This document shows positions 2,581 to 31,857 of a DNA stretch of 36,076 nucleotides, one piece after another. The stretch lies in IMG/VR virus record IMGVR_UViG_3300033067_002443, positions 1-36,076 of that record. One strand, written 5' to 3'. Made by a program: the position numbers and the translations under genes. How positions within the stretch are numbered: position 1 is the first letter of the stretch; each line of letters starts with the position of its first letter. Source of the DNA: a virus. Taxonomy: Duplodnaviria; Caudoviricetes. Under the pieces are notes generated by a model. It had not been told where the DNA came from and ran no database searches. It saw only the letters and a program-made list of their open reading frames with translations.

Positions 2581-2614
2581 AGCTTACGCACGGCCGCGTA
2601 CGGGTCAAGGCGTA
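2581..2614 (-). promoter_or_regulatory. PL-like sigma70 promoter overlapped by two TACG-N8-CGTA operator-like palindromes
   Basis: Minus strand TTGACC (2608-2603)-N16-TAAGCT (2586-2581); palindromes at 2585-2600 and 2599-2614. Confidence 0.65.
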
Positions 2615-2632: not shown

Positions 2633-3274
2633 TCACTGCGAGATACGTACGCTTTTCCGGACACCTTTTGCGTAGGTCGACATGCTGACGCCGCCGGGCC
2701 ACGTGAAAAGCCTCACTCCGTCCTCGATCGTGACCGTGGGCTCGCCACGTTTCGCCGTTTCTGCATCGCGCATCGCAGCCAGATCGCCGCCCTCGTAGAG
2801 CGTGTCCACACGGCTCGCGAGTCCCTCCTTGAAGCCGACGGCGAAAATCGGCCCCTCGGACGTCATGCACCCCATCAGCGACGGCGAGTCCTCGATGTAA
2901 CCCCACTGCTGCGTACAGATTTGTCGCACTTCCTTCGGTGTCGACCCGAGCTCCGGGGCCACGGGGCGCGCTCGGATGCGCTTCCTCTCGGCGGCCCCCT
3001 CATCCGTGGCAACAGTGGGAGCAGGAGCCGGGCTGGGCTGGCGAACGGCCTCGACGAGCTCGGCGTGCTGCCGCTGGCTGGCGGCGGCGGCGCGCTCCTG
3101 CGCTTCGATGGCGTCACACTGCCCGTCCTCGATCGCACTCAAGGCCTGAGTGTTTTGCGTCGAGAAGCTGCGACTGAAGCGATTGCCCGCGACGCGCCGG
3201 CGGCAGGCCTCAGCTTGTGTCTTCGGAGGAGGGACACATGCAACGAGAAGCAGCAAAACCAGGGCCTTGCGCAT
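2633..3274 (-). CDS. Putative lipoprotein co-transcribed with the repressor (superinfection-exclusion candidate)
   Basis: Start re-called to MRKALVLLLLVAC (basic N-terminus, hydrophobic core, lipobox Cys); the start overlaps the repressor stop. Confidence 0.6.
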   Translation of the reverse strand: MRKALVLLLLVACVPPPKTQAEACRRRVAGNRFSRSFSTQNTQALSAIEDGQCDAIEAQERAAAASQRQHAELVEAVRQPSPAPAPTVATDEGAAERKRIRARPVAPELGSTPKEVRQICTQQWGYIEDSPSLMGCMTSEGPIFAVGFKEGLASRVDTLYEGGDLAAMRDAETAKRGEPTVTIEDGVRLFTWPGGVSMSTYAKGVRKSVRISQ

Positions 3275-3753
3275 CACATCTTCCTCATCCGCTCGAGACC
3301 CTTCTCCAGCGCGTCGAGCTTCGACGCCCATTCGGGTGCTGCGAAGTCGCTGTTCCCGAAGAAGCCGGCTCGTGCGGCGGCGATGGTCCACGGCGACCAG
3401 TGCTTCGTGCTCGCGTGGAAGTCGATGCAGACCGTCAGATTCTTGAACGGGTCGTGTCCCGCGACGAGTCCGGCGGCGATGGCGGCGGGGGCGTGCTCGG
3501 CCTCCTTGAAGTCCCCGATGAGGTCCTCGAGCGTCTCCTTGCCATCGAGCACGGCGATCTCGGTCGCGATCTTGGGGGAGGGCGTGTACTCGCCCGCGAT
3601 GAGCTTCGAGATGGTCTGCTGAGACACGCCGAGGGCGAGCGCCATCTTCACCTGCGCGCGCGGCTGCCCCTTGAAGTGCTTGTTCCAGACACGCAGAGCG
3701 GCCTCCTTGATGAGGTCCGCTTGCTCGTCCGTGTACGGTTTTTTCGCAGCCAT
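3274..3753 (-). CDS. CI-like XRE HTH repressor
   Basis: QVKMALALGVSQQTISKLIAGEYTPS HTH; divergent from a Cro-like gene; no S24 peptidase domain is visible. Confidence 0.8.
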   Translation of the reverse strand: MAAKKPYTDEQADLIKEAALRVWNKHFKGQPRAQVKMALALGVSQQTISKLIAGEYTPSPKIATEIAVLDGKETLEDLIGDFKEAEHAPAAIAAGLVAGHDPFKNLTVCIDFHASTKHWSPWTIAAARAGFFGNSDFAAPEWASKLDALEKGLERMRKM

Positions 3754-3775: not shown

Positions 3776-3833
3776 ATACGCCTATCAAGCTGTAATCCTT
3801 GCGCCGTACGCCGTGACGCGTTAGGTGTACGTC
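3776..3833. promoter_or_regulatory. cI/cro divergent control region
   Basis: Intergenic and AT-enriched; TTGCGC at 3799-3804; operator-like TACG-N8-CGTT at 3807-3822 resembling the PL palindromes. Confidence 0.5.
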
Positions 3834-4088
3834 ATGGCACCAAAGCGCGGCGGCGTACGCTTGAGGGACTGGCTCCGAGAGGAGCGGAGGACGCAGAAGT
3901 GGTTGGGCGACCAGATCGGCACCCACCAGACCAACGTGAGCGCCTGGATCCTTGGGCGGGCGATCCCGCTCGAGATGGCGCTGGCGATCCGGCGGGTCAC
4001 GGGAATCGCCGTCGAAGCCTGGGCCGAGGAGGCGGAGCCCTCTCGGCCATCGAAACCGCCATCGGCGGGGAAGCAGCGAGCGGCCTGA
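3834..4088 (+). CDS. Cro-like XRE HTH regulator
   Basis: LRDWLREERRTQKWLGDQIGTHQTNVSAWILGRAIPLEMALAIRRVTG, a short HTH protein divergent from the repressor. Confidence 0.82.
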   Translation: MAPKRGGVRLRDWLREERRTQKWLGDQIGTHQTNVSAWILGRAIPLEMALAIRRVTGIAVEAWAEEAEPSRPSKPPSAGKQRAA

Positions 4089-4119
4089 CATCCCTCCCAG
4101 CCTGATCGGGACAAGGGCC

Positions 4120-4147
4120 CGCGTCAGCGCTGAACGCGTCGATTTTT
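4120..4147 (+). terminator. Possible tR1-like intrinsic terminator after cro
   Basis: CGCGT-CAGCGCTGA-ACGCG hairpin followed by TCGA and TTTTT; the U-tract is offset by 4 nt. Confidence 0.35.
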
Positions 4148-4214
4148 CCGTGCGCAGGCTGCGCGCGTGACCAGCACTGCTCCTGCCGGAGTCGTTCAGG
4201 TGTGTGAGGAATAC

Positions 4215-4874
4215 ATGAATCAATCTGCGATGGTGACGACGAAGACAGTCTCGGTCGACGGGTGGAACCTCCTTGTCGGCGATGACGACGAGCCGATGGT
4301 GCTCGACGAGGAGCTTGCGCGGCGGCTCGGCTACGCGCGGCCTCGCAAGGTTCGCGACCTAATTCGCCGGTTGTTCAATGATTCCGACGTACGCCCCACC
4401 GTGGGGCGCACGGTGGTCGGAGTCGCCGAGCGCACGGTGGTGACCTACCACCTCACGGAGGCGCAGGCCCTGAAGGTCATCGCGAAGAGCGACACGGCCG
4501 TCGCTGACGCAATCCTTGACGAGGTGATCGACGTCTTCATCAAGGCGCGCAAAGGCCTGCTCCTCCCCCGAGCCCAGCCACTCTCGCTCGACATCGCCCA
4601 CGGCCCTCGTGTCGGTGACGTGCCGAACGTCCGTGAGGACCTCTCCGCCCTCTGCGCGATGACGGCTCGTGCGTCGGGTCACTCGCTGCGGCGCATCCAC
4701 GGCTTCCTTCGTCGGACGTACCGTGTCCCCGGCATCCATCACATCGCGCTGGTGTTGTATCCCGCGGTCAAGCAGACGCTGGAGGCCATCGGCCTGGGCC
4801 GTCTGCACCTGGCTCGTGCGCTTCCTGCTGCCCCGGTCGACAAGCGCCAGCTCGCGCTCTGGAAGGTGAACTGA
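4215..4874 (+). CDS. Phage antirepressor-like DNA-binding protein
   Basis: GAGGA RBS; VLDEELARRLGYARPRKVRDLIRR...YHLTEAQALKVIAKSDT...EVIDVF resembles phage antirepressor N-terminal domains; position just after cro. Confidence 0.65.
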   Translation: MNQSAMVTTKTVSVDGWNLLVGDDDEPMVLDEELARRLGYARPRKVRDLIRRLFNDSDVRPTVGRTVVGVAERTVVTYHLTEAQALKVIAKSDTAVADAILDEVIDVFIKARKGLLLPRAQPLSLDIAHGPRVGDVPNVREDLSALCAMTARASGHSLRRIHGFLRRTYRVPGIHHIALVLYPAVKQTLEAIGLGRLHLARALPAAPVDKRQLALWKVN

Positions 4875-4993
4875 TGGAGGCCGCCGACAAGCTCGAAGCC
4901 CTCGCCTGGATGCTCGTCGCCATCGGCGTTGCCCTTGGCGCGGTGATCGGCGTCTGCGTCGCTGGCTTCGCCGGCTGGGGGTGCGGGCCGTGA
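4874..4993 (+). CDS. Small membrane protein (39 aa)
   Basis: Below the ORF-track cutoff: MEAADKLEALAWMLVAIGVALGAVIGVCVAGFAGWGCGP; TGATG and GTGA coupling to both neighbours. Confidence 0.55.
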   Translation: MEAADKLEALAWMLVAIGVALGAVIGVCVAGFAGWGCGP

Positions 4994-5175
4994 GCGGGGA
5001 TTTCCTGCTCTTCGCCTTCATGGTGGGGCTGGTGTTCTCGTCAATTCTCCACGGCCTCGGGCGGCTGGTTGATGCGCTGAGGGGGACATGGCTCTTTCAC
5101 CGAAGGCTCCTGGCCCTCGAGAAGAGGGCGGCAGCGCTCCAGGAAGAACTCGCCCACAAGCGGGGCGAGTCGTGA
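4990..5175 (+). CDS. Small membrane protein
   Basis: Hydrophobic N-terminus FLLFAFMVGLVFSSIL and a coiled-coil tail; coupled overlaps. Confidence 0.55.
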   Translation: MSGDFLLFAFMVGLVFSSILHGLGRLVDALRGTWLFHRRLLALEKRAAALQEELAHKRGES

Positions 5176-5414
5176 ACCACGCCGAACGCCTTCGGACGCG
5201 GCTCATGGTCGCCGCGCAGAAGTTTGCCAGCGAGGTGGCTGACGCCGTGCTCGAGGCAACCGGGGAGCAGGGCGAGGCTCCCGCTCCGCCCGTGAAAAGG
5301 CGTCGCGCCCCGACGCGCGTTCCGTCGGTCGTCTCGGCACCCACAACCACTGAGGACCTGGGGGCCGACCGTGCTGCGGCGAACGCGCTCGCCAAGCTAG
5401 GGATCCGGGGATGA
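5172..5414 (+). CDS. Hypothetical protein immediately upstream of the integrase
   Basis: GTG start overlaps the previous stop; its stop overlaps the int ATG. Confidence 0.6.
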   Translation: MNHAERLRTRLMVAAQKFASEVADAVLEATGEQGEAPAPPVKRRRAPTRVPSVVSAPTTTEDLGADRAAANALAKLGIRG

Positions 5415-6604
5415 CTCGCGCACGCAACGCACCTGGAGAGGGCAACGTCGAATCGCTGCCCTCGGGTCGGTTCTCCGTTCGCGTCCCGGTTGGTGGCCAG
5501 GCTGGTCGCCGCCTGCCGGGGACCTACGCCACCTTCGAGGAGGCCGACGCCGTGCGCCGTGCGGCGGTCCGGCAGCTCATCAACGCGGGGCGTGCCGCGG
5601 TCGGTGGGGTGACGTTGCGGGCGTTCGCGTACGCGGCTCTCGACCGGTGGGCCCTCCGCGGGAACCGGAGCATCAGCGACGACAAGAACATGCTCGAGGT
5701 CCACATCGCCACGGCGCACTTCGCCGACTGGCCGATCCAGAACATCCGTCGCGTCGACGTGAAGCGCTGGCGCGACGAACTCCTCCGGAAGAAAGCCGTC
5801 CGCGCCATCACACGAGGGCCGAAGGGGGCGCGCGTCGTCGAGCGCATCGAGACCGATCGACCGCTCGCCCGGCAACGCATCATCAACGTGCTCTCGCTCC
5901 TTCGGCGCGTGTTCAACGAAGCGCTCGAGGACGACCTGGTGGAGGCGAACCCCGCGCTCGAGGTCTACGCCCCGAAGCAGCGTCGGACCGACGAGCCGTG
6001 GACGTACCTCACGCTCGAGGAGCAGCACGCGCTCCTGGCGGTCGTGCCGGAACGAGACAGGCCCCTCGTCGGGTTCATGATCGGAACCGGCATGCGGGAA
6101 GGGGAGGTCTACGCCCTCCGAGCCGAAGACGTCCTGCTGACCGGCGACAACCCAGAGGTGATCGTCCGCTTCGGCAGCCCTGGCAAGCCCCCGAAGAACG
6201 GCCGCATCCGCCGCGTCGCGCTCTTCGGCCTCGGGCTGCTCGCCGCCCAAGAACAGGACGCGCTCTCCCTCCGGCAGCGAAACAAGCTCGGCCTCTTCTT
6301 CCCCGGCGAGCGGGGTGGCCACCGGCCCAAGAAGAAGGCCCCCAAGGGGTGGGCTGGGTGGCTTCGGGCCGCTGGCATCACGCGCCGGGTGCGCGTCCAC
6401 GACCTCCGCCACACGTGCGCCGCTGCCCTCGTCTCCGGGATGTGGGGCCGCGCCTGGAGGCTCGAGGAGGTCCGGGACCAACTGGGCCACTCCACGATCA
6501 AAGTCACGGAGCGGTACGCCCATCTGGCGTCGACAGCGCTCCGAATGGCTGCGCAGGCCACGCCGGGGCCACGAACCCTCATTTTGCCCGAAGAAAGCAG
6601 GTAG
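5411..6604 (+). CDS. int: Tyrosine recombinase / phage integrase
   Basis: TGMREGE (R), PPKNG (K), HDLRHT (HxxR), LGHS and ERY (Y); N-terminal GEGNV...GRF arm-binding-like domain; attP-like tRNA fragment immediately downstream. Confidence 0.95.
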   Translation: MTRARNAPGEGNVESLPSGRFSVRVPVGGQAGRRLPGTYATFEEADAVRRAAVRQLINAGRAAVGGVTLRAFAYAALDRWALRGNRSISDDKNMLEVHIATAHFADWPIQNIRRVDVKRWRDELLRKKAVRAITRGPKGARVVERIETDRPLARQRIINVLSLLRRVFNEALEDDLVEANPALEVYAPKQRRTDEPWTYLTLEEQHALLAVVPERDRPLVGFMIGTGMREGEVYALRAEDVLLTGDNPEVIVRFGSPGKPPKNGRIRRVALFGLGLLAAQEQDALSLRQRNKLGLFFPGERGGHRPKKKAPKGWAGWLRAAGITRRVRVHDLRHTCAAALVSGMWGRAWRLEEVRDQLGHSTIKVTERYAHLASTALRMAAQATPGPRTLILPEESR

Positions 6605-6621
6605 ATCGTGCTCTACGCATT

Positions 6622-6670
6622 CGGTTTCGTAAACCGTAGGTCTCGAGTTCAAATCTCGAAAGTGGCTCCA
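6622..6670 (+). other. attP core: 3' half of tRNA-Thr(CGT)
   Basis: Anticodon arm CGGT-TT[CGT]AA-ACCG, T-arm TCGAG-TTCAAAT-CTCGA, acceptor 3' strand AAGTGGC, discriminator T and CCA. The 5' GCCACTT strand and D-arm are absent. It starts 18 nt after the int stop. Confidence 0.85.
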
Positions 6671-6674
6671 CACT

Positions 6675-6845
6675 TAGGTCACCCCGCGTGGCCTACCGTG
6701 GCATACAGCTCCAGCCACGCGCAACTGCGCGAAACCTGGCGCACCCTTCGGCGACTTCTGGGGCTCACTGAGCCTCGGTCGCCCAGGTGTGTTTCGACGA
6801 AACACGCCTCCGCCCCCTGGACCTACCCCGTCGGCGTGCCGCGGG
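6675..6845 (+). other. Structured non-coding segment downstream of attP (several stem-loops)
   Basis: Stems at 6675-6695, 6718-6731, 6750-6783 (nested GGCGAC/GTCGCC around GGCTCA-C-TGAGCC) and 6785-6809 (AGGTGTGTTTCG-A-CGAAACACGCCT). Confidence 0.55.
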
Positions 6846-6864
6846 TGACCTGCGGGGGTGCGTC

Positions 6865-7077
6865 GTGAGGGCCCCGGTCTGGGTGGTGAAGGTGCGCGGG
6901 CATGGCTCGGTCTCGGCCGACCTGTATTACAGCCTGGCCCTCTACGTTGGCTGGTTCACGACGAACCAGCGAGTCGCCTACCGCTACCATCTTCGTGCAG
7001 ACGCTGAGCGTCGCGCCGCCGAGTTCCCTGGCTCTCGCGTCGTCCGCCTCGTGCCTCGGAAGCGGGGTGGGCGGTGA
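6865..7077 (+). CDS. Hypothetical protein
   Basis: GTG start after GGGGG; WVVKVRG...RVVRLVPRK is typical of small phage ORFs. Confidence 0.55.
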   Translation: MRAPVWVVKVRGHGSVSADLYYSLALYVGWFTTNQRVAYRYHLRADAERRAAEFPGSRVVRLVPRKRGGR

Positions 7078-7153
7078 GTGCACGCAGCGAGATGGCCAGG
7101 ATGGTGCCGTCGACCTGGCACGCCGAGTTGCGCGTGTCGCTCCCGAGGCAACC

Positions 7154-7585
7154 ATGAGGGCCCTCCTCGCCGCCGCCCTCCTCGCCAGCCTCGTGCAGGC
7201 CATGCACGGATGGCTTCCCGACTCCGACCCGGTGGACCTGGCCCGGGCGATTCTCGCGGTCACCGACGACCCGCACGAGATGATGCTGCTCGCGCGTATT
7301 GCTTTCCGAGAAAGCTCCTTCCGTCCCGACGTCGCCGACTGCCGGGTGAAGGGTCGACAAGGTGAGCTCGGCGCATGGCAGATCTTGCCAAGGTCCGCGA
7401 CCGAAGCGTCCCGCCTTTGCGTGTCGCTCGAAGGTGACGCACGGCTCGCGCTCGAGCGAATCCGAGAGAGCGTCGCGGCGTGCCGCCACCTTCGTCCCGA
7501 GTGGCGGTTGGCGATTTACACTCGTGGAAAATGCAACAGCCGTGAAGGCCACAAGCTCTCGGAGGCGCGATGGGTCGCCCCGTGA
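7154..7585 (+). CDS. Secreted lytic-transglycosylase (SLT/lysozyme-like) domain protein
   Basis: Signal peptide MRALLAAALLASLVQA; catalytic motif IAFRESSF, GELGAWQI (GxMQ-like) and LAIY. Confidence 0.65.
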   Translation: MRALLAAALLASLVQAMHGWLPDSDPVDLARAILAVTDDPHEMMLLARIAFRESSFRPDVADCRVKGRQGELGAWQILPRSATEASRLCVSLEGDARLALERIRESVAACRHLRPEWRLAIYTRGKCNSREGHKLSEARWVAP

Positions 7586-8130
7586 GTTTCGAGGAACGCT
7601 TCTGGTCGAAGGTCGGCATCCGCGGCCCGCACGAGTGCTGGCACTGGACAGCATGCCGGGCTCGCTACGGCTACGGGATGATTCGTCACGACGGTCGCAC
7701 GCAACGCGCCCACCGCGTCGCGCTTCTCCTGACCGACGCTCCGCCGCGAGGCCACGCACTACATCACTGCGACGCCCCTTCGTGCTGCAACCCTCTTCAT
7801 TTGTACTGGGGCACCGACGCGGACAATGTTGCCGACCGAGAACGTCGGGGCCGCTCGGGGTCTGCCAAGGGGGACCGGAACGGGTCCCGCAAATACCCAG
7901 ACCGACGCCCGCGAGGGGTTTCGCACGGAGACGCAATACGCCGAGCGACGCCGCGTGGGGATCGGGTGGCTACCGCAAAGCTGAACGACAACATCGTCGC
8001 CTTGGTGTTGCGTGACGACCGCCCCCACGCACATCTCGCTCGCGAGCTAGGCGTCACCCCGAGAACCATCCGACTCATCCGCCTTGGGCAAACCTGGAAA
8101 CACGTCGCTCGCCCGGGGGTGCAGTCGTGA
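7582..8130 (+). CDS. HNH endonuclease with C-terminal HTH (homing-type)
   Basis: ERFWSKV...CWHWT...RAHRVA...HHCDAPSCCNPLHLYWGTDADN; C-terminal AKLND...LARELGVTPRTIRLIRLGQTWKHV. Confidence 0.9.
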   Translation: MSFEERFWSKVGIRGPHECWHWTACRARYGYGMIRHDGRTQRAHRVALLLTDAPPRGHALHHCDAPSCCNPLHLYWGTDADNVADRERRGRSGSAKGDRNGSRKYPDRRPRGVSHGDAIRRATPRGDRVATAKLNDNIVALVLRDDRPHAHLARELGVTPRTIRLIRLGQTWKHVARPGVQS

Positions 8131-8360
8131 AGGTCGCCTCCTATAGCCTCCCTTCCGGCTTCTTCTCCGTGACGTGGCACATCCAGTGGGTCCGCGTTCG
8201 CGAGACCTCCGCGTCGAATTTCCGTGGCTGCCCTGGCTTCGTGGTCGAGCCACGTGATGCCGGGTCGATGGTCTTGCTTGCGGGGGAAACGAAGGCGCTG
8301 TTCTTCGGCAAGGGCGAGCTGGAGCCCTTTCCGCAGGAGGCGACCAATGCGGCTCCCTGA
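8127..8360 (+). CDS. Hypothetical protein
   Basis: 77-aa ORF with GTGA coupling. Confidence 0.55.
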   Translation: MKVASYSLPSGFFSVTWHIQWVRVRETSASNFRGCPGFVVEPRDAGSMVLLAGETKALFFGKGELEPFPQEATNAAP

Positions 8361-8535
8361 AGGCATGACGCGGGAGGTCTGGGAAGCCGTCGGGCGACTT
8401 ACGAGCGACCGGCGCGATCGCGTGCTCGAGCGGAGCGCCATCATCCACGAGGCAACGGGCCTGCCATGGGTGGAGTGCGACCGGCAAGCGCTCGAGGAAG
8501 AGCGGGCGCAGCTCCGCTTGCGGTGGGGCACATGA
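8347..8535 (+). CDS. Hypothetical protein
   Basis: AGGAGG RBS before ATG 8347; ERSAIIHEATGLPWVECDRQA. Confidence 0.6.
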   Translation: MRLPEGMTREVWEAVGRLTSDRRDRVLERSAIIHEATGLPWVECDRQALEEERAQLRLRWGT

Positions 8536-8795
8536 GCGGGCTGTCACTCGAGCAGCGGCTGGCTCAGCGGGGGCTCCTGGGTGCCGTGGAGAAGGTCGCG
8601 CGGCGTCATCACGTGACGATGGGGGAGCTGCTCGGACGGCGCCGGTTCAAGCACATCGTGGCCGCTCGACATTCAGCGTGGCGAGAACTGCGGGCGAAGG
8701 GGTTGAGCTACCCGGCGATCGGCGAGCTCTGGGGTGTGGATCACACGACGGTGTTGGCGGCTTGTCAGAAGCCTGCGGCGGAAGGGGTGCAGTGA
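8532..8795 (+). CDS. DnaA C-terminal (domain IV) HTH protein
   Basis: ELLGRRRFKHIVAARHSAWRELRAKGLSYPAIGELWGVDHTTVLAACQK matches the Bac_DnaA_C pattern (R..AR..A....LS...IG..F..DHTTV). Confidence 0.8.
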   Translation: MSGLSLEQRLAQRGLLGAVEKVARRHHVTMGELLGRRRFKHIVAARHSAWRELRAKGLSYPAIGELWGVDHTTVLAACQKPAAEGVQ

Positions 8796-9634
8796 TGGTT
8801 TGGGCAAAGATCGACGACGAGATTCTGGACAACCCCAAGATCGTCCGCGCGGGCGTCTTCGGGTTCGCCCTTCACGTGGCTGCCATCACGTGGTGCTGCC
8901 GTAACCTGACAGATGGCTTCATACCTACCGCGCGAGTCACAGCGTTACTCACGCTCGACCGTGTCGAGTACGACGTCGCAAATCCACTCGCTCTCATCGA
9001 CGGCCCCGACTCTGGTGGGGGCAACACGGGCCTCCCCGCCCTCGTCATCGCCGACCACCTGGTCAAGGTGGGGCTCTGGGACGACGTCGAAGGAGGGTTC
9101 CAGCTGCACGACTTTCTCCAATTCAATCCGTCACGTGCGGACGTTGAAGCCAAGCGAGAGCAGAACGCCGCGCGCGCCAAGCGGTCACGCACTCAACACG
9201 CTACCGGCGGCGCCAGTCACGCTGCTAGTCACGGCGTGACTCACGCGTTACGTGCGCCCCTTCCCGTACCCGATCCCCTTAACAAATCTCCTGACGGAGA
9301 TTTGTATGGCGCACAGAGCGCGCCCCCCAAGTCGGGGACTCGGATCCCGACGAGGCGCAAGCAAGGCACCGCGTTGCCTGACGACTGGTCCCCCGGTGAT
9401 TCGCTTCAGGCTTGGGCCAGGAGCAAAGGTTTCGATGCCACCGGGCCCGAGCTGGCCAAGTTTCGCGATCACTGGAAGTCCAGAGGGAAGACCATGGTCG
9501 ACTGGGACGCGGCCTACCGGAACTGGTTGCGCAACGCCAGCGATTGGGCCAGGCCCAAGTCGGTCCGCCCGGCAGACATCACGCGGCAGCCTGTCACCGA
9601 TGACCTGCTGGCTCGCTGGACGGGGGAGTCGTGA
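8795..9634 (+). CDS. Phage replication initiator (O-like, C-terminal DnaT-like domain)
   Basis: MVWAKIDD...PK N-terminus, HDFLQFN, C-terminal LPDDWSP...KFRDHW...DWDAAYRNWLRN; followed by a DnaC-like loader; contains iterons. Confidence 0.8.
   Translation: MVWAKIDDEILDNPKIVRAGVFGFALHVAAITWCCRNLTDGFIPTARVTALLTLDRVEYDVANPLALIDGPDSGGGNTGLPALVIADHLVKVGLWDDVEGGFQLHDFLQFNPSRADVEAKREQNAARAKRSRTQHATGGASHAASHGVTHALRAPLPVPDPLNKSPDGDLYGAQSAPPKSGTRIPTRRKQGTALPDDWSPGDSLQAWARSKGFDATGPELAKFRDHWKSRGKTMVDWDAAYRNWLRNASDWARPKSVRPADITRQPVTDDLLARWTGES
9184..9305. repeat. Putative replication origin within the initiator gene: iterons plus an AT-rich inverted repeat
   Basis: (A)GTCACGC-like units at 9184, 9215, 9227 and 9239 (the last three with 12-bp spacing); perfect IR ACAAATCTCC-TGAC-GGAGATTTGT at 9282-9305. 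Confidence 0.6.
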
Positions 9635-10323
9635 TGCTCAAGCTCTCCGACCTCGCTCCGGACATCGCCGCCCTCGTCGAGCGCCAGCAGCAGGAAGCCC
9701 GCGAGCACGAGACCTCGTGCAAGGACCCCAGCTGCGCTCGCTGCCACCCCGAGCAGCCCTCGTCGCCCGTCGCGTTCACCCGAAGCCTGGAGCAGCTGTC
9801 ACGGGAGCGGCTCCTAGCTCACCTGCCGGCAGCGTTCGCCGACGCGAGTTTGACCGCGCCGTGGCTCGTGGCGCTGGTCGGGCCCGATGCCATCCACCAG
9901 GCACGTCGGGCGGTGAACGCGAAGCGCGTGGCGCTCGTCGGCCCTCCGGGGTCGGGCAAGACGTCGCTGGCGATCGCCATGTTCCGCGCAGCCGTTGAAG
10001 GCACGCGGCACTTCGCGGGCTACCGGTACATCTCGAGCCACGCGCTCGCCAAGGCGCGGGCCACGAGCTCGCTCGGCGACGAGGCTCCGCTGGTCGAGCG
10101 TGCGCTGAGCGCGCCGTTGCTCTTGCTCGACGAGCTCGGCGGGGAGGACTCCCGGTATGCCTCGGCGGTCGCGGAGGTGATCTACGAGCGCCATGCCGAG
10201 GCGCTTCCGACGTGGATCACTACCGGCGTTTCGGCCAAGGCGCTTGCCGACCGGTACGGCGGGGGCATCGCTCGACGACTCTTCGAGCATGCGGAGATCT
10301 TCAAGCTCGGGGGCAAGCCGTGA
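9631..10323 (+). CDS. DnaC/IstB-like helicase-loader ATPase
   Basis: Walker A GPPGSGKT, Walker B LLLLDELG, YERH...PTWITT, GIARRL; downstream of the initiator. Confidence 0.88.
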   Translation: MMLKLSDLAPDIAALVERQQQEAREHETSCKDPSCARCHPEQPSSPVAFTRSLEQLSRERLLAHLPAAFADASLTAPWLVALVGPDAIHQARRAVNAKRVALVGPPGSGKTSLAIAMFRAAVEGTRHFAGYRYISSHALAKARATSSLGDEAPLVERALSAPLLLLDELGGEDSRYASAVAEVIYERHAEALPTWITTGVSAKALADRYGGGIARRLFEHAEIFKLGGKP

Positions 10324-11012
10324 TCTCCCTCACCCTGCCCATCCGGACCGTGAGCGAATCCAACGCCCGGGGACACTGGGCCACGAGAGCCCGCCGTGCC
10401 AAGGCCCAACGCCGGGCCGCAGGGCTGGCCGTAAGGGCCGTTTGCCCTCCGGAATGGGTGCGGAGACGCCCGCGACCCAAAACCGCGTCTGAGTGCAACC
10501 TCGCGCCAGCAATCGGCGAGGCAGAATGCCACAATGTGACTGTCACGTTGGTGAGGGTGGCTCCGCGACTGCTCGACGACGACAACCTTCGCGGGGCGCT
10601 GAAGGCCGTGCGTGATGGGGTCGCCGACGCGCTCGGGACCGATGACCGGGACCCGCGGATTCAATGGGCGTACCAGCAACGCAAGCAACCCAAGACATAC
10701 GCGGTAGAGATCCACATGAAACCCACAAGCCTTCCCGAGGTCATTCGTGACAACAGCGACTTGCAAACGCAGAATCATGGGTCATTATCCAGGCACGACA
10801 ATTGCCAAGGAGGGCGCCACCATGCAGCCCATGACACCGCCGAAGGGATACCGAGTGACGCGACGCCCGACCTGCTACCCGATGCAGGACGAGCCGCAGC
10901 TGGTACGGGACGCCAAGGGGCGCGTGCTCGCCGCGATCGAAGCGTGGACGCCGGAGCCTCCGCCCGAGTCTCGGCTGAGCTGAGCAGCCCGATGCTCGCG
11001 GGGGAGGAGTGA
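10320..11012 (+). CDS. RusA-like Holliday junction resolvase (core ends near 10720, with a doubtful C-terminal extension)
   Basis: SESN...HW, VTLVRVAPRLLDDDNLRGALKAVRDGVADALGTDD (D-x-D-N...K...D catalytic pattern). Confidence 0.72.
   Translation: MISLTLPIRTVSESNARGHWATRARRAKAQRRAAGLAVRAVCPPEWVRRRPRPKTASECNLAPAIGEAECHNVTVTLVRVAPRLLDDDNLRGALKAVRDGVADALGTDDRDPRIQWAYQQRKQPKTYAVEIHMKPTSLPEVIRDNSDLQTQNHGSLSRHDNCQGGRHHAAHDTAEGIPSDATPDLLPDAGRAAAGTGRQGARARRDRSVDAGASARVSAELSSPMLAGEE
10791..10806 (+). promoter_or_regulatory. sigma54-type (-24/-12) promoter candidate
   Basis: AGGCACGACAATTGCC versus consensus TGGCACG-N4-TTGC; exact GG-N10-GC spacing; locally AT-enriched. A sigma70-like TTGCAA-N16-CATTAT lies just upstream at 10761-10788. 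Confidence 0.5.
10822..10983 (+). CDS. Hypothetical protein (53 aa) overlapping the RusA ORF tail in another frame
   Basis: AGGAGGG RBS 7 nt before the ATG; MQPMTPPKGYRVTRRPTCYPMQDEPQLVRD... Confidence 0.45.
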   Translation: MQPMTPPKGYRVTRRPTCYPMQDEPQLVRDAKGRVLAAIEAWTPEPPPESRLS

Positions 11013-11226: not shown

Positions 11227-11481
11227 ATGAATCGCCACGAACGACGGAAGCAGGCGTCGGTGTCTCGCCATGCGGAAGCGCAGCTCGCGCAACTCGAGCG
11301 GGTCTACCGAGCGTGGACAACTCAGCGCAACGCGGACCTCGAGCAGCACATCCGGGCTGCTATGGACAGGCGTCGTTTCGAGCAGGCCCAGGCCGAAGAG
11401 GCAGAGAGATGGGTCCGGGAGAACCCGGAGGAGGCGGCAGCCTACCGTGCCAAGTACGGGCGCGAGGAGCCGTCGAAGTGA
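11227..11481 (+). CDS. Hypothetical protein
   Basis: AGGAGG RBS; MNRHERRK... helical and charged; coupled to the next gene. Confidence 0.6.
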   Translation: MNRHERRKQASVSRHAEAQLAQLERVYRAWTTQRNADLEQHIRAAMDRRRFEQAQAEEAERWVRENPEEAAAYRAKYGREEPSK

Positions 11482-11957
11482 AACCCCTCTCACGCGAGCG
11501 CGCCCACCAGGTCGACCGCATCGTGGCGGGCATCGTCGAGCGGATGGTCTCCGGCGAATGGGTCGCGGGGAAGAGCCACCGCGAGCTCGCCGAAGCCGAG
11601 AAGGTCAGCGTCGACCGGGTGAAGGACTGGGCGACGGAGGCCGGCAGGTGCCTGCGCATCCTGGCGATGACCGACAAGGAGGACCTCAGGGCTCGCAACC
11701 AAGCCAGGCTGGACATGGTGTTCTCGTCGGCGCTCACCGACGGGGCACACGCGGCCGCCGTGGGCGCGCTGGCAGAGCAGGCGAGGCTCCTCGGCCTGAA
11801 CGCCCCTGAGAAGCACGAGCACGCCGTCGTGGTGGCGCAGTACGAGCAGCTTGCGCCTCCTCAGCAGGCGGCGTGGCTGAGGGAGCGCGCGGCGCGGCTG
11901 CTGGCAGAGGCAGAGCGGCTGGAGACGCTGGCGCTCGAGGGGAGTACGGTGACCTGA
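11478..11957 (+). CDS. Putative terminase small subunit (HTH)
   Basis: N-terminal HTH (HRELAEAEKVSVDRVKDW), helical middle, C-terminal ARLLGLNAPEKHEH typical of TerS-like proteins; adjacent to TerL. Confidence 0.6.
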   Translation: MKPLSRERAHQVDRIVAGIVERMVSGEWVAGKSHRELAEAEKVSVDRVKDWATEAGRCLRILAMTDKEDLRARNQARLDMVFSSALTDGAHAAAVGALAEQARLLGLNAPEKHEHAVVVAQYEQLAPPQQAAWLRERAARLLAEAERLETLALEGSTVT

Positions 11958-12278
11958 ATGAGCTGGTTTGACGGTCTGCTGAATCACAAGAACCTGCCCC
12001 CGGCCATCCCAACGGATGCCCAAGGTGGCATCGGCGTGGATGACGACGGCAACGTCGTCGTCCGAGTGCCAGCTATTCCCATTCTGAACCGGTTCGCCCC
12101 AGGCTCTTCTGGGTTCTGGCGGTGGATTGACGTCCCGCTCGTGGCCGACGGCGTCACGGTCCGCGTTGGTCACGCACGCATGGTGGCGTTGCTCGAGGAG
12201 CTGGCGCGCGACGGCTGGCCTATTGCCACCACTCCCCCTCCGCCCGACGACGAGCCTCTTCCTCCTCGCCCTCAATGA
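11958..12278 (+). CDS. Hypothetical protein overlapping the TerL 3' end tail-to-tail
   Basis: ATG directly after the TerS stop; 106 aa; 59-nt antisense overlap with TerL. Confidence 0.45.
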   Translation: MSWFDGLLNHKNLPPAIPTDAQGGIGVDDDGNVVVRVPAIPILNRFAPGSSGFWRWIDVPLVADGVTVRVGHARMVALLEELARDGWPIATTPPPPDDEPLPPRPQ

Positions 12279-13602
12279 GCGCAGCCTCCATCCGCGCCAG
12301 CTGCTCGGCGTGGCTCGGCGGCTCCTCGGCAGGCGCCTCGTGGTACGCGCTCGCCGCGCGCCATGCGTATAGGCAGCTGTCGGCGCAGTGGTTGTCGAAG
12401 CCCTCGGCCTCCTTGGCGTGGTCCTCGGTCCACGGCAGCTCGAGCCACTCGGCGACGAGGTCGGTGCACCCGGGGTCGACCTTGATGCGACCGCGCTCGA
12501 GCTCGCCGTTGAACAGCGAGATGTACCCGCGCTTGTTCTGCTTGTCGGCGGGGTCGATGGGCAGCGTGAAGCGCTTGCGCGCCTCCTCGGCGTAGCCCTT
12601 CCCCAGCCCGCCCACGTCGGCAACGATGCGCACGGGCTCGTACGCCAGGCTGAGCCGCTTCGCTTCCTCGGCGGCGTCGCTCGGGGTGAGCCCCCGGCGC
12701 TTGCAGCTCTCGACCACGTAGACCGTCGGGTCACCCTCGCGCCAGCCCAGCACCGTGAACGCCGTGGCGTCGGTGAAGCCGTAGTCGATGCCGAGCAGGT
12801 ACGTCGTCAGCTCGGGTGCCTTGGCGAGGTTGCGCACCTCGCTGAAGCTGTAGACGAGCCCGCCCGAGTCGCGCTCCCAGATGCCGTGCTCGAGCTGCCG
12901 CCGCGTCGTGGCGTCGAGGAGGGCTAGCGCCCGCCGGTACTCGTCTTGGTCGAGGTGGGGGTTGTCGACCAGGCTAGCTGCCACGAATCGGCGGTCCACA
13001 TCGGTACTCTCGAGAAAACGACGCTTGACCCACTCGTGCCCAAGGCCTCCCGGGTTGCTAGCAGCTCGCGCGCGCAGAGGAGTCCGTACCCCCTCAGTCC
13101 GGCGCAGACGGGACAGGAGATAGCGATACGGCTGCTCGGGGAACTGGGTGAGCTCGTCCCATCCGAGGAACTGCAGCTCGGCACCTTGGTAGCGGTAGAC
13201 ATCTTTGGCGGTCTCGCAGTAGCCGAACTGGAGCGACGCCCCGCTCGGGAAGGTCCAGCGTTTGTCGCGGTCGTTCCAGCGTGCCCCGGTGCCCTGAAGC
13301 CAGTCGTGCGCGCGGTCCATGATGGCGCCCGGAAGCGAGAGGTCCGCGTACGTCCGCCGGAGGATGAGCGCCGCGTAGCCCGGCACGTGGACGTACTGCA
13401 GCGCCGCCATCAGGAGCGCCGACGACTTGCCGCCGCCGGCAGCACCCCCGTAGAGGGCTTCCAGGCAGTCGAGGGCCAGGAATTCTGCCTGCTTCGGGGT
13501 CGGCTCTTGCGGGATGAAGGACTTGGGCGTGCGCTTGGCGGCGTCACGGAGAATGCGCGCGTCGACCTCGGCGACGAGGGCCAGCTCCGCGGCGGAGAGC
13601 AC
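12220..13602 (-). CDS. terL: Terminase large subunit
   Basis: Q motif PTPKQAEF, Walker A GGAAGGGKS, Walker B LGWDELTQF, coupling motif ASNPGG, RNase-H-like nuclease GIDYG...DNHCADSCLY. Confidence 0.96.
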   Translation of the reverse strand: MLSAAELALVAEVDARILRDAAKRTPKSFIPQEPTPKQAEFLALDCLEALYGGAAGGGKSSALLMAALQYVHVPGYAALILRRTYADLSLPGAIMDRAHDWLQGTGARWNDRDKRWTFPSGASLQFGYCETAKDVYRYQGAELQFLGWDELTQFPEQPYRYLLSRLRRTEGVRTPLRARAASNPGGLGHEWVKRRFLESTDVDRRFVAASLVDNPHLDQDEYRRALALLDATTRRQLEHGIWERDSGGLVYSFSEVRNLAKAPELTTYLLGIDYGFTDATAFTVLGWREGDPTVYVVESCKRRGLTPSDAAEEAKRLSLAYEPVRIVADVGGLGKGYAEEARKRFTLPIDPADKQNKRGYISLFNGELERGRIKVDPGCTDLVAEWLELPWTEDHAKEAEGFDNHCADSCLYAWRAASAYHEAPAEEPPSHAEQLARMEAALIEGEEEEARRRAEGEWWQ

Positions 13603-17800: not shown

Positions 17801-19027
17801 ATGTCTCTCGATATCACCGCACTTACCGCGGTACTCAAGGTTCAGTACACCCAGAAGAAGGTCAACACCCTCTCGTATACCAACAACCCGTTCTGGGCCA
17901 TGCTGCCCAAGCGCACGGACTTCGTTGGTATCAACAAAGTCGTCGCCCTCCGGAATGCCAATCCGCAGGGTCGCGCGTACGACTTCACGAGCGGTCTGAC
18001 CAACGTTTCGCCGTCGGTCTACAACCGGTTCCAGGTCACCCGCGCGAAGGACTACGCCTTCGGCCGCGTGTTCGGCGAGGCCATCGAGGCGTCGGCGAAG
18101 GACGCGGGCTCGTTGCTCGCGGGCCTCAAGGCCGAAATCGACGGCGCGATGTACACCGCCACGCGGTCGCTCGCGAAGGACCTCTTCGGCAACGGCGGTG
18201 GCGCTCGAGGCCAGATCTCCGCCGGCTCCAACGTCGGCACCCCGACCATCACGCTCGCGGACACCTCGCAGATCGTGAACTTCGAGGTCGGCATGAAGCT
18301 CCGTGTCTCGGCCACGGACGGCACGAGCGGCTCGCAGCGCGCGGGCACCGTGACGGTCACCGCGGTCGACCGCGTTGCCGGCACCATCACCGCGTCCGGC
18401 AACTGGACCGCGGGCATCGCGGCGGCTGCAGCGTCCGACTTCATCTTCCAGGACGGCGACTTTGCGGCCACCAACCAGGCCGTGACGGGCCTCGCGGGCT
18501 GGATTCCGGCGACGGCCCCGGGCGCGACGGCGTTCTTCGGCCTCGACCGCTCCAGCGATCCGGTTCGCCTCGGCGGCGTCCGGTACACGACCGGCTCAGG
18601 TGGGCCGATCGAGGAGATCCTCATCGCGACGGCGGCCCTCGTGGTGCGTGAAGGCGGCAAGCCCACCCACGTGTTCATGAACCCGCTCGACGTCGCGAAC
18701 CTCATCATGGCTCTCGGCTCGAAGGTCATCTACGACCGGTCGAAGAGCTTCGACGACCCCGACATCGGCTTCGAGACCGTGAAGTTCATGGGTCCTGCGG
18801 GTGTGATGCAGATCGTCCCCGACCTGAACTGCCCGCGCGGCAAGGGTTGGATGCTGCAGATGGACACGTGGTGCTTCGAGTCGCTCAACGGCGCGCCGCG
18901 GATCCTCAACCTCGACGGCCAGGACATGCTCCGCGACGCCACGGCGGACGCGTACATCTTCCGGATTGGCTACTACGGAAACCTCACCTGCTCTGCCCCC
19001 GGGTGGAACGCCTACTTCGCACTCTGA
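17801..19027 (+). CDS. Major capsid protein
   Basis: 408 aa after the scaffold with GGAG RBS; NPFWAML, LFGNG, GLAGWIP, FFGLDRS, YGNL.C.APG.N; strongly biased codon usage. Confidence 0.85.
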   Translation: MSLDITALTAVLKVQYTQKKVNTLSYTNNPFWAMLPKRTDFVGINKVVALRNANPQGRAYDFTSGLTNVSPSVYNRFQVTRAKDYAFGRVFGEAIEASAKDAGSLLAGLKAEIDGAMYTATRSLAKDLFGNGGGARGQISAGSNVGTPTITLADTSQIVNFEVGMKLRVSATDGTSGSQRAGTVTVTAVDRVAGTITASGNWTAGIAAAAASDFIFQDGDFAATNQAVTGLAGWIPATAPGATAFFGLDRSSDPVRLGGVRYTTGSGGPIEEILIATAALVVREGGKPTHVFMNPLDVANLIMALGSKVIYDRSKSFDDPDIGFETVKFMGPAGVMQIVPDLNCPRGKGWMLQMDTWCFESLNGAPRILNLDGQDMLRDATADAYIFRIGYYGNLTCSAPGWNAYFAL

Positions 19028-19039
19028 GAGGAGGACCCA

Positions 19040-19438
19040 ATGGCGAATCGCACTTGGTACCCCTCGATGTCGTACGGAAGCAGCCGGGTTTATCTCGACT
19101 TCTTCTTCCTCACCAACAACACCTCCACGCCGCTGCTCTCGACGCTCGACGGCGCGGGCATCGACACGGTGGCCTCGTTCAACCGAACGGGCGCCGGCAT
19201 CATCGTCGTCACGCTGAAGGACCCGTTCACGAAGGTGATTCGTGCGGGCGCTGAGCTCGACGACACGGCCAACGACGGCGCGTACGCGACCGTCGGGAAC
19301 ATCGCCAACGAAGGCACCAACTCGGGCATCGCCTTCACCATCCGCCTCCGCGCCGCGGCAGGCACGCTCACCGACTACACGGGCCGCAAGTGCTCCGTCG
19401 GGCTCGTGCTCAAGAACGGCAACTGGGGCGTGAAGTGA
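19040..19438 (+). CDS. Putative capsid decoration / minor head protein
   Basis: GAGGAGG RBS; 132-aa beta-rich T/G/A protein directly after the MCP. Confidence 0.55.
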   Translation: MANRTWYPSMSYGSSRVYLDFFFLTNNTSTPLLSTLDGAGIDTVASFNRTGAGIIVVTLKDPFTKVIRAGAELDDTANDGAYATVGNIANEGTNSGIAFTIRLRAAAGTLTDYTGRKCSVGLVLKNGNWGVK

Positions 19439-19635
19439 AGCCCGAGAAGAAGCCTGCGCTCTCGCTCGTCATCGGGATGGGCAAGGGCAAGGGCGAGGAC
19501 GCCGACGAGGGCGACGACGAGGGCGGGGAGTACTCCGCGATCGTCGACGAACTCGCCGACGTCCTCGGGGTCGCGGACGACAAGAAGCAGGACTTCGCGG
19601 ACGCCTTCAAGGCCGCGGTCATGCACTGCAAGTGA
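19435..19635 (+). CDS. Small acidic hypothetical protein
   Basis: GTG start overlapping the previous stop; KPEKKPALSLVIGMGKGKGEDADEGDD... Confidence 0.6.
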   Translation: MKPEKKPALSLVIGMGKGKGEDADEGDDEGGEYSAIVDELADVLGVADDKKQDFADAFKAAVMHCK

Positions 19636-19647
19636 CCGGAGGCATCC

Positions 19648-20316
19648 GTGGCAAGGACGAGAACCCTCACTGACATGCTCCTGGACATCCGGCAGCGGAC
19701 CAACCAGGAGAACTCGACCTTCGTCACGGATGCCGAGCTCACCGAGTACCTGAACCAGGAGCTCGCCGAACTCTACACCCGCATCGTGCAGGCGCAGGGC
19801 CCGGCGCACTACCGGTCGTCGTCGTCGGTGAGCGTTACCTCGGGCACGGCGCTCTACAGCCTGCCGGCAGACTTATGGCAGGTGCAGCAGGTGGAGGCCG
19901 TCATCGGCGGCGTGACGTGGCGGCTCCGGCCCTTCATGGGCTACGAGCATGCTCCGCTCGCGTCGACGGGACGGCCGCTCGCCTACTACGCGCCGGTGAA
20001 GTACCGCGTGCAGGCGGACCAGATCGAGTTCCTACCCCCGACGCAGACCTTCACCGCGACGGTCTACTACACGAAGGCTCCGCCCCGGCTCTCGGCGGGG
20101 AGCGACACCTTCGACGGGTTCGCGGGCTACGAGGTTGCCGCCATCTACGGCGCGTGCGCCACGGTGCTCGCCAAGGAAGAGAGCGACCCGAGCTTCTACT
20201 CGATGCAGAAGGATCGCATCCTGAAGCACATCGACTCGCTGGCGGGTCAGCGCGACGAGAACGAGCCCGAGCGCGTCCAGGACGTCGACGGCGGGGACCT
20301 GGGGTGGGTCCTCTGA
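19648..20316 (+). CDS. Head-tail adaptor (P22 gp4 / T7 gp11-like gatekeeper)
   Basis: IRQRTNQENSTFVTDAELTEYLNQ, YSLPADL, position after the head genes. Confidence 0.7.
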   Translation: MARTRTLTDMLLDIRQRTNQENSTFVTDAELTEYLNQELAELYTRIVQAQGPAHYRSSSSVSVTSGTALYSLPADLWQVQQVEAVIGGVTWRLRPFMGYEHAPLASTGRPLAYYAPVKYRVQADQIEFLPPTQTFTATVYYTKAPPRLSAGSDTFDGFAGYEVAAIYGACATVLAKEESDPSFYSMQKDRILKHIDSLAGQRDENEPERVQDVDGGDLGWVL

Positions 20317-20633
20317 TGGCGTCCACGAAGCTGGCCCTTCGCCGCGTCCACACGGGCACCTTCACGGGTGACCAGACGCAGCGGCTCGCCCAGCAGGCGG
20401 CGCAGATCACCAACGGCGCGCCGTTTCTCTCGGGCCGACTCCTGAAGCGGGTGGCCATCGGGACGTCGGCGACGACCATCAACCACGGGCTCGGTCGGGC
20501 CTGGCAGGGTTGGTTCCTGACTCGGCTCGGGACGAGCACGACGGTCTACGAGTCGTCGACGCAGCCGGACGCGACCCGGCAGATCGCCCTCCAGGCAGGG
20601 TTCAACATCACCGTGGACCTCTGGATCTTCTGA
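20316..20633 (+). CDS. Virion structural protein, hypothetical
   Basis: Start re-called to ATG 20316; TINHGLGRAWQGW motif; coupled on both sides. Confidence 0.6.
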   Translation: MASTKLALRRVHTGTFTGDQTQRLAQQAAQITNGAPFLSGRLLKRVAIGTSATTINHGLGRAWQGWFLTRLGTSTTVYESSTQPDATRQIALQAGFNITVDLWIF

Positions 20634-23600: not shown

Positions 23601-23740
23601 TCCGCTTCCGCATCTCCGACGCGACGCCGTCGGGAGGGTTCGCGGTCGGCACGGGGCAAGGTCCCGCGCTCGACACGATGGGTATCGAGGTCGGGGTGAA
23701 GCAAGGCTTCGCGGTGAATCCCGCGACGAAGAAGGGGTGA
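20633..23740 (+). CDS. Tail nozzle / tubular protein B-like (P22 gp10 / T7 gp12-like beta-propeller)
   Basis: 1035 aa, beta-rich; LTRAENVRW, RLWGV...VWFS, DVGCTNPRSVVSMPDGVMFQSDRGIYLL, WNYVEKQWS. Confidence 0.75.
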   Translation: MPLQRALQQTGFRFGVQEGTDPHAVPFGTLTRAENVRWAKAGAISKRYGTSTLPQSVQGGGSISAAARLFARGNELNLIDGTDLYAYSSAQGKWKNIDRVPDVGLTWSTLLDTTLGVQCVDHALSSGGYLVTAWTTGDPQTATAQGYCYVQVTDKATGAVLMPASRVQAFANASSCRVLISGTNAFILTRAGANTYASSIDLTTMTLNTAASLRGDGNTTYLSWDAMLIGSSIVICYVGPGPGIKLYAYSYTGPSTYTQTATGGVTGEAATQYGPIAIDGISGERIWVVYGTLAPSIKVRFAAVSDSTLAQTIAPTDIETASGFNSFGNTTVKRIDSGSALAGWSTVQGLSVQQRASSAVITTAPAVTTTSLRGTWCSAFLSRIFAMGSKYYAFVSDDATAGVAVPGTNSALVEIETSTKGSLTTYVPHRYAGKVDLLIAGAYGKAPIACLPGPITASSTEVLCGLPFQSAASVTSTNWRCGIRLVSCTTGASLPTDQWRTVTYGPEAYVAGPVLSACDGRLCFDYGGSRAPAFLLATAAGGGQMAAGAYLYAAVAEFRSSAGILHRSATVTYPTSVTSGALGKVTLDIMGLSLQSKQDVANGALAVNTGPTLLALYRTAANGSSYYRLTAEPRFNIATNDPMASLVSPVDTRNDTAIDGSAQLLTTQPLLYTTGGILDDYQPPAFTTMVQHRSRLWGVDGGGRTVWFSKSFQDDPSIAPGFHPNLRLTFDAPVTALASMDDKLVAFGSDWISYFLGEGPSPAGTGSDLSGEITIQTDVGCTNPRSVVSMPDGVMFQSDRGIYLLTRALELVWIGRPIMDTLASYPNITSATLVAKRNEIRFTANNAAGSASRTLVWNYVEKQWSVSRYAGDAAIADACMWSGAWTFVTTAGLVYQETESTYLDAGTYVPMVLETAWISAAGPLAYHSVRTMQLEGVSASNHDLTIECAFDGETTYVQSKTFAAGTPVTTIGPLEQAEITIGTRRKCQHIRFRISDATPSGGFAVGTGQGPALDTMGIEVGVKQGFAVNPATKKG

Positions 23741-23744
23741 CGGG

Positions 23745-31367: not shown

Positions 31368-31374
31368 GGACCCC

Positions 31375-31854: not shown

Positions 31855-31857
31855 ATT

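What the first reader, a model, noticed from the sequence alone, without database searches (positions are those of the whole stretch)
3834..10323. Integrase and attP sit inside the Cro operon: possible excision-gated lytic switch
Seen: cro, the antirepressor-like gene, three small genes and int all run rightward, and from the antirepressor to int they are chained by stop/start overlaps. The tRNA-Thr attP core follows 18 nt after int. The same-strand transglycosylase, HNH, DnaA-C, initiator, loader and RusA genes continue beyond it. Established: in lambdoid layouts int/attP lie at the end of the leftward arm, so PR stays joined to the replication genes in the prophage. Inference: integration here cuts the operon, leaving PR-cro-ant-int at the attR end and the replication genes at the attL end behind the host tRNA. 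Derepression would first make only Cro, Ant and Int. Replication genes would be joined to PR only after circularisation, enforcing excision before replication. This differs from att-in-gene switches such as Mx8 (attP in int) and mycobacteriophage BPs (attP in the repressor).
Basis: partly seen in the sequence, partly recalled or inferred. Interest (0 to 1): 0.8.

Follow-up and report, generated by a model that had tools for sequence, protein, structure and literature searches.

The report
Attachment site splits phage early operon
In this uncultured phage, likely of myxobacteria, the integrase gene and its tRNA docking site sit in the middle of the gene chain that runs from the lytic switch to the replication genes, so inserting into the host would cut that chain and likely keep replication off until the phage has excised; myxophage Mx8 has the same layout, and the transposon Tn916 has a proven control of this kind.

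Summary
Observation confirmed. cro, an antirepressor-like gene, three small genes, an intact tyrosine integrase, a 49-bp exact copy of a Polyangiales tRNA-Thr(CGT) 3' part (6622-6670) and the initiator/loader/RusA genes all run rightward. Of 16 junctions, 14 overlap.

Added here: an open frame (6608-6868), in frame with int behind its stop, crosses the core and overlaps the next gene. The closest virion relative runs cro to rep with no integrase. Operator-like boxes lie at the PL/PR positions, none between attP and the initiator.

Integration would leave cro-ant-int at attR and replication behind the host tRNA. No attL/attR of this phage was found, but two integrated Polyangiales elements show this split state, one in the same tRNA.

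Excision-gated replication is plausible (about 0.5) and untested; a second promoter is the main rival. The claimed difference from Mx8 is mostly wrong: Mx8 also has int/attP upstream of same-strand initiator and dnaC. Four of 17 classifiable integrase relatives are split, 13 classical. The mechanism is proven in Tn916. The scan noted this idea before on other DNA (e1-6029387 and others). New variant of a known kind.

The parts
2585..2614 (.). Two operator-like palindromes (TACGC-N6-GCGTA) over a leftward sigma70-like promoter (PL position); context for the switch
   Evidence: motif read from these same sites, so post hoc
2633..3277 (-). Lipoprotein-like gene overlapping the cI stop (possible exclusion gene, inferred)
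   Evidence: sequence; no family above cut-off
3274..3753 (-). cI-like repressor, HTH_3, 159 aa, no S24 peptidase domain found
3807..3822 (.). Operator-like palindrome just upstream of cro (PR position)
3834..4088 (+). cro-like HTH gene
4089..4214 (+). Only long gap in the rightward chain; holds 2 of the window's 5 CGTTCAG heptamers (LexA half-site-like), no full SOS box
4215..4874 (+). Antirepressor-like gene
   Evidence: PHROG Ant, E=3e-4
4874..5175 (+). Two small hydrophobic genes (4874-4993, 4990-5175); the second is absent in L113
5172..5414 (+). 80-aa gene abutting int, with a conserved N-terminal stretch; candidate directionality factor (inferred, no known family)
5411..6604 (+). Tyrosine integrase; R229, K262, H330, R333, H360, Y369 invariant in 24 close relatives; 71 synonymous vs 12 non-synonymous changed codons against L113
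6556..6572 (-). Two GTGGCC repeats in the int 3' end; candidate P arm-type sites
   Evidence: inferred role
6608..6868 (+). Bridge ORF (86 codons): in frame with int, starts 3 nt after its stop, crosses the core, overlaps the next start; also open in L113 and L114; not conserved as protein
6622..6670 (+). attP core = 3' part of tRNA-Thr(CGT)
6675..6703 (+). Conserved inverted repeat (-11.7 kcal/mol as RNA, no U tail) whose right half is the first of two direct GTGGC(C/A) repeats; candidate P' arm sites and/or insulator hairpin
6865..8795 (+). Overlapping genes after attP: 6865-7077 (weak homologue lies between cro and rep in G302), 7074-7157, SLT-like 7154-7585, HNH 7570-8130, 8127-8360, 8347-8535, DnaA_C HTH 8532-8795
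8795..9634 (+). Replication initiator
9634..10323 (+). DnaC-like helicase loader
10320..11012 (+). RusA-like resolvase

Best explanation
The integrase and a tRNA-Thr attP lie inside one rightward gene chain from cro to the replication genes; integration would cut it, and the replication genes would likely get their promoter back only after excision, as in Tn916. Steps. (1) Shown: layout, overlaps, intact integrase, core identical to a Polyangiales tRNA-Thr(CGT). (2) Follows from tyrosine-recombinase geometry: the prophage reads host tRNA, P', SLT, HNH, initiator, loader ... cI | cro, ant, small genes, int, attR. (3) Inferred: on derepression, transcription from PR (or from a promoter in the cro-ant gap) makes Cro, Ant, the 80-aa partner and Int, then runs off into host DNA. 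Excision re-forms attP and the same transcript reaches the initiator, so the order is excise, then replicate. (4) More speculative: in the circle, ribosomes leaving int restart at 6608 and cover attP and the P' hairpin. At attL that start is gone, so RNA from the host tRNA promoter enters P' untranslated and is stopped (Rho or hairpin), which insulates the replication arm.
For: 14 of 16 junctions overlap, and with the bridge ORF the coding chain has no gap over 3 nt from ant to rusA. G302, the closest virion relative (major capsid 78%), has cI|cro, small genes, initiator, DnaB with no integrase between, and a weak homologue of the first post-attP gene lies in that stretch (E=2e-5), so the post-attP genes look like Cro-operon genes. 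Operator-like boxes at <=1 mismatch: 4 in the window (chance mean 0.84; 1 of 100 shuffles reached 4), three at PL/PR and one at 311; none in 6671-8795 even at 2 mismatches. No sigma70-like promoter or intrinsic terminator was called between cro and rep. The core carries compensatory T-stem changes in L113, and these variants match whole host tRNA-Thr genes in 10 of 401 Polyangiales genomes. The split state is seen integrated in G420 (tRNA-Ser: ImmA-like, cI | small RHH-like gene, int at one end; initiator, primase, DnaB at the other) and G426 (same tRNA-Thr; int at one end, primase at the other). Tested precedent: Tn916 (PMC11658703 passages).
Against: No attL/attR of this phage was found. There are no transcript data. 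The promoter scans are weak here: the tool's scan finds neither PL nor PR, and my looser scan finds only PL, so a promoter after attP, above all one needing an activator or another sigma factor, is not excluded. The operator motif was read from the sites it then found. In G426 an excisionase-like gene lies on the far side of att with the primase (E=2e-5), which suggests that arm can be expressed while integrated, so a split layout need not be a gate. 13 of 17 classifiable relatives use the classical layout, so the split is not required. The bridge ORF has 4 synonymous vs 20 non-synonymous changed codons and poor codon usage; it is open by chance with p about 0.11 (window) and 0.19 (L114). In L117 the in-frame continuation stops before the core, and att-inside-int also occurs in classical layouts. 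The strong fold of 6600-6870 (z -4.6) is not kept in L113 or L114 (z -1.1, -1.2).
Confidence: 0.5

Rival explanations
1. Integration splits the chain, but the replication arm has its own promoter in P' or among the genes before the initiator, turned on in trans (Cro, Ant, the DnaA_C HTH protein or another sigma factor). The integrase module merely landed between cro and rep, and order is not enforced.
For: 6671-6864 is the only stretch after attP with room for a promoter. G426 has an excisionase-like gene on the far side of att. The module is absent from this position in G302, and the layout label needs 5 changes on the integrase tree, as expected of a mobile module.
Against: No operator-like box and no sigma70-like promoter in 6671-8795; genes from 6865 on overlap without gaps.
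Confidence: 0.28
2. In the prophage the host tRNA-Thr promoter, which points into P', drives the replication arm once a phage antiterminator is made, so replication could start in situ.
For: The core is co-oriented with the arm, the host terminator behind the tRNA in L002 would be left at attR, and P' has a hairpin but no U tail.
Against: In L119 and L034 the core is inverted, so no tRNA promoter points into the arm, yet the split is the same. No antiterminator family was found among the genes scanned.
Confidence: 0.1
3. The layout acts mainly at infection: Int is made from the early transcript, and integration itself shuts off replication and commits the cell to lysogeny. This is compatible with the best explanation.
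For: int is not in the cI unit, and no CII-like gene or separate int promoter was found. Integration-dependent switches are known in mycobacteriophages (Broussard 2013; only its reference-list entry was seen; content recalled).
Against: No data on timing; the phage has a conventional divergent cI/cro pair with operator-like boxes.
Confidence: 0.12

Closest known systems
Myxococcus phage Mx8 (NC_003085; review PMC6070905 passages)
   Same: uoi-int/attP lie on one strand between imm and the HNH, initiator and dnaC genes, so integration splits the same kind of run.
   Different: Mx8 attP is inside int and integration changes the Int C-terminus; here Int stops 17 nt before the core and stays whole. 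The integrases are distant (long branch). A divergent cI/cro pair is clear here but was not detected in the Mx8 genes scanned. The passages read do not mention replication control.
Tn916 (ICE): excision-coupled expression from Porf7 with insulator T1 and antiterminator canT (PMC11658703 passages)
   Same: Promoter and int at one end, replication genes at the other; expression only after circularisation; need to insulate from host promoters.
   Different: A conjugative element with rolling-circle replication and many target sites, where the control is proven. Here it is a tailed phage with a cI/cro switch and a tRNA target, with no intrinsic terminator or antiterminator identified.
Classical lambdoid layout, e.g. 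P22 with delayed excision and lateral transduction (PMC8575938 passages)
   Same: Divergent cI/cro, leftward Erf/exonuclease arm, rightward initiator-loader-RusA arm.
   Different: There int/attP end the leftward arm and replication can begin in situ; here the layout would prevent that if no second promoter exists.
Helper-embedded PICIs (PMC10111431, abstract only)
   Same: Excision is needed before an interrupted phage gene is expressed.
   Different: There a satellite interrupts its helper's late gene; here the phage's own attP interrupts its own early run.

Membership tests
tRNA-targeting tyrosine integrase system | Catalytic R-K-H-R-H/W-Y set | tested here: met
   invariant in 24 aligned sequences; PF00589
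tRNA-targeting tyrosine integrase system | attP core duplicating a host tRNA 3' part next to int | tested here: met
tRNA-targeting tyrosine integrase system | attL/attR junctions of this phage in a host | tested here: inconclusive
   none found; another element uses the same tRNA in G426
tRNA-targeting tyrosine integrase system | Recognisable excisionase | tested here: inconclusive
   5172-5414 has no family or solved relative but co-occurs with int
Mx8-type att-in-integrase switch | Core inside the int reading frame | tested here: not met
   int stops at 6604, core starts at 6622; only an in-frame continuation behind the stop crosses it
Mx8-type layout | int/attP upstream of same-strand initiator and loader | tested here: met
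Tn916-type excision-coupled expression | Promoter and replication genes physically separated when integrated | tested here: inconclusive
   true for PR by geometry; absence of a second promoter rests only on weak scans
Tn916-type excision-coupled expression | Transcript crossing attP after excision | not testable with these tools
   only contigs were available
Tn916-type excision-coupled expression | Insulating terminator at the element end | tested here: inconclusive
   conserved hairpin without U tail; no terminator called
Repressor-splitting switch (mycobacteriophage BPs type, recalled) | attP inside the repressor gene | tested here: not met
   cI 3753-3274 lies about 2.9 kb from the core
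LexA-controlled antirepressor induction | SOS box upstream of ant | tested here: inconclusive
   M. xanthus box: only chance-level matches; two CGTTCAG half-sites in the gap, a heptamer conserved in 4 of 5 Polyangiales lexA promoters

The most novel reading that the evidence does not exclude
A ribosome-gated attachment-site switch in a tailed phage. In the circle, ribosomes restart behind the int stop (or read through it) and cover attP, letting the Cro transcript reach the replication genes. Integration removes both the promoter and that start, so one crossover both unplugs replication and insulates it from the host tRNA promoter. This hard-wires excision before replication and rules out lateral transduction, in a design that recurs among myxobacterial phages.
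Probability: 0.2. Interest if true: 0.75.

Novelty: new variant of a known kind. Interest (0 to 1): 0.5.

Why it matters
When a prophage excises relative to when it replicates decides whether it amplifies and transduces flanking host DNA, and the P22 paper calls this timing unresolved (PMC8575938). A layout that makes replication depend on excision would fix the order by gene position alone and could be read from genomes. It is testable now in Mx8, a cultured phage with the same layout. The principle is already proven in Tn916, so the gain is its extension to tailed phages.

Tried and rejected
Integrated copies of this phage.
- The exact core gave 1 locus in genome contigs, a whole host tRNA, and 0 in viral contigs.
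- Integrase relatives occur in 43 of 301 order-level genomes, best 47% identical in the top hit, and in 1 of 88 family-level genomes; none is this phage.
- 6 of 21 listed runs were laid. No phage-host junction appears in the rows shown; the tables were cut. X2 breaks at the core, where other tRNAs share it.
- No RNA holder was listed; this says nothing about expression.

Relatives that gave no layout.
- The single-protein integrase scan of viral contigs found nothing.
- 12 of the 25 loci gene-called could not be classified, and L129 duplicates L047.
- G131, G093, G186, G229, G133, G042, G298, G009, G300, G192 and others were islands, fragments or unreadable. G339 holds two one-strand satellites that I did not classify.
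- No att core was found in G324 or G325 with my tRNA probes. G324's end-to-end join is assumed from the tandem repeat at both ends.

Other tests.
- A conserved RNA structure across P' is rejected, except for the first hairpin.
- A conserved bridge protein is rejected.
- P' is only mildly C-rich (17 of 281 windows as high), so there is no case for a rut site.
- No full SOS box was found.
- The one-clade tree test did not finish.

Literature. 'split operon' with 'phage P2' gave 0 papers; 'separated from its promoter' 0; 'read-through attP' 0. In some searches no listed paper held 'split operon' or 'only after excision'. The original Mx8 and BPs papers are not held, so a printed statement of this idea for Mx8 cannot be excluded. 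An old 'split-operon' model for P2 int is recalled only.
Full report
What the window is. The window is a whole 36,076-base virus record, linear and estimated 94% complete. Its right end is a 12-nt tandem repeat and leftward genes lie at both ends, so it is most likely a circle opened there. It has portal, capsid, terminase and endolysin genes, a leftward Erf/exonuclease arm and a divergent cI/cro pair. The likely host order is Polyangiales, from the tRNA match.

Observation. From ant to int every junction is a stop/start overlap; of 16 junctions from cro to rusA, 14 overlap. Bases 6622-6670 equal the 3' 49 bases of a complete tRNA-Thr(CGT) gene in a Polyangiales MAG. The integrase keeps its catalytic residues in 24 aligned sequences and is under purifying selection (71 synonymous vs 12 non-synonymous changed codons against L113). 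The int-core-P' order is kept in L113 (97% integrase identity) and L114 (74%), with compensatory changes in the tRNA T-stem in L113. It is also seen in contigs of 4 of the 6 runs laid, one probably the source. GTGGC(C/A) repeats flank the core on both sides, as arm-type sites would (role inferred).

Integration geometry. The core is co-oriented with int, so crossover restores the host tRNA in front of P' and leaves cro-ant-int facing out at attR. I found no junction of this phage itself. Core variants match tRNA-Thr genes in 10 of 401 Polyangiales genomes. In one, G426, a 15.5-kb element sits in that tRNA with int facing out at one end and primase genes facing in at the other. G420 holds a 16-kb element in tRNA-Ser with an ImmA-like gene, cI, a divergent small gene and int at one end, and an initiator of the same family as ours, primase and DnaB at the other. 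The split state therefore exists in hosts, but in satellite-like elements with distant integrases.

Is it one transcription unit? For:
- G302, the closest virion relative (capsid 78%), runs cI | cro, small genes, initiator, DnaB with no integrase in between. One of those small genes weakly resembles the first gene after our attP. G302 is 90% complete, so where its integrase lies is unknown.
- A palindrome TACGC-N6-GCGTA occurs twice over the leftward promoter and once before cro, plus once at 311; none lies in 6671-8795 even at two mismatches. The motif is post hoc.
- No sigma70-like promoter or intrinsic terminator was called between cro and rep.
Against:
- These scans miss PR itself, so they are weak evidence.
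- In G426 an excisionase-like gene lies beyond att, which suggests such arms can have their own promoter.
- The 126-nt cro-ant gap holds two LexA half-site-like heptamers but no full box. CI shows no self-cleavage domain, so induction through Ant from a promoter in this gap is possible. That promoter would still be upstream of attP.

The bridge ORF. Three bases behind the int stop and in the same frame, an 86-codon ORF crosses the core and ends overlapping the next start; the other two frames are closed. L113 (one 3-base indel) and L114 (54 codons) have the same arrangement. It is not conserved as protein (4 synonymous vs 20 non-synonymous), and chance openness is about 0.11 and 0.19. In 9 of 13 relatives checked the core lies inside the int frame itself, Mx8-style, including 5 with classical layouts; in L117 the continuation stops before the core. 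The simplest reading is a relic of an integrase tail. A role in carrying ribosomes over attP, and so in insulating the arm from the host tRNA promoter once the start is cut off, is my inference.

How common. Of 17 integrase-family loci I could classify, 4 are split (L034, L037/G324, L038/G325, L119) and 13 classical, with int ending the recombination arm or lying opposite the replication arm. L119's upstream side is missing, G324's join is assumed, and G033 and G303 were read from translations rather than family scans. In L119 and L034 the core is inverted relative to int. A tree of 22 integrases needs 5 changes of layout (bootstrap 4-6; 32 of 500 shuffles as low), but its well-supported branches force only one, so repeated origin is suggested, not shown.

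What is known. The Mx8 record shows imm, mox, uoi, int, HNH, initiator and dnaC on one strand, and the review passages place attP inside int (PMC6070905). In Tn916, replication and transfer genes are silent while integrated because they are separated from Porf7; they are expressed after circularisation, with an insulating terminator and an antiterminator (PMC11658703 passages). P22 shows the opposite programme, replication in situ before excision (PMC8575938 passages). A 2026 myxophage preprint has no occurrence of 'attP' in its main text (10.64898/2026.09.14.751636 passages; supplements not seen). My searches found no paper stating this control for a tailed phage, but the original Mx8 papers are not held. 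The scan's own notes record the same idea in four other genomes; these are leads, not support.

Verdict. The feature is real and integration almost certainly splits the run (about 0.85). That this enforces excision before replication is about even odds (0.5); a second promoter is the main rival (0.28). It works like Tn916 if true, shares its layout with Mx8, and is not a member of the att-in-int or att-in-repressor switches. New variant of a known kind; interest 0.5.

Noticed in passing
window 12220-13602 (-): The terminase large subunit gene is inverted relative to G302 (76% identical DNA), ending a short leftward operon instead of following the likely small subunit 11478-11957; no convincing flanking inverted repeat was found.
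   Followed up: partly
window 2608-2574 (-) and 3798-3834 (+): The promoter-like sites at PL and PR end 6-7 nt before an ATG, which suggests leaderless transcripts.
   Followed up: no
window 9220-9260: Short repeated and palindromic motifs inside the initiator gene may be the origin, as in lambda O.
   Followed up: no
window 35772-36076: 12-nt tandem repeat encoding a Gly-Asp/Asn-Tyr repeat protein at the contig end; G302 has a similar gene.
   Followed up: no
G420:C626 about 18400-34600; G426:C86 6842-22362; G339:C173 about 174900-201600: Integrated 10-16 kb satellite-like elements in tRNA-Ser, tRNA-Thr and tRNA-Val of Polyangiales; G420 and G426 carry a detached integrase-tail-like ORF at the far att.
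   Followed up: partly
L325-L328, upstream of lexA: 4 of 5 Polyangiales lexA promoters share TTGAC, a spacer ending CGTTCAG, then TAG; a lead for the SOS box of this order.
   Followed up: partly
L002 2820-3330: A transposase-like remnant abuts the host tRNA-Thr, whose acceptor stem has one mismatch; this copy may itself be a recombined site.
   Followed up: no
L034 8135-8371: An integrase-like fragment lies directly before the full integrase gene.
   Followed up: no
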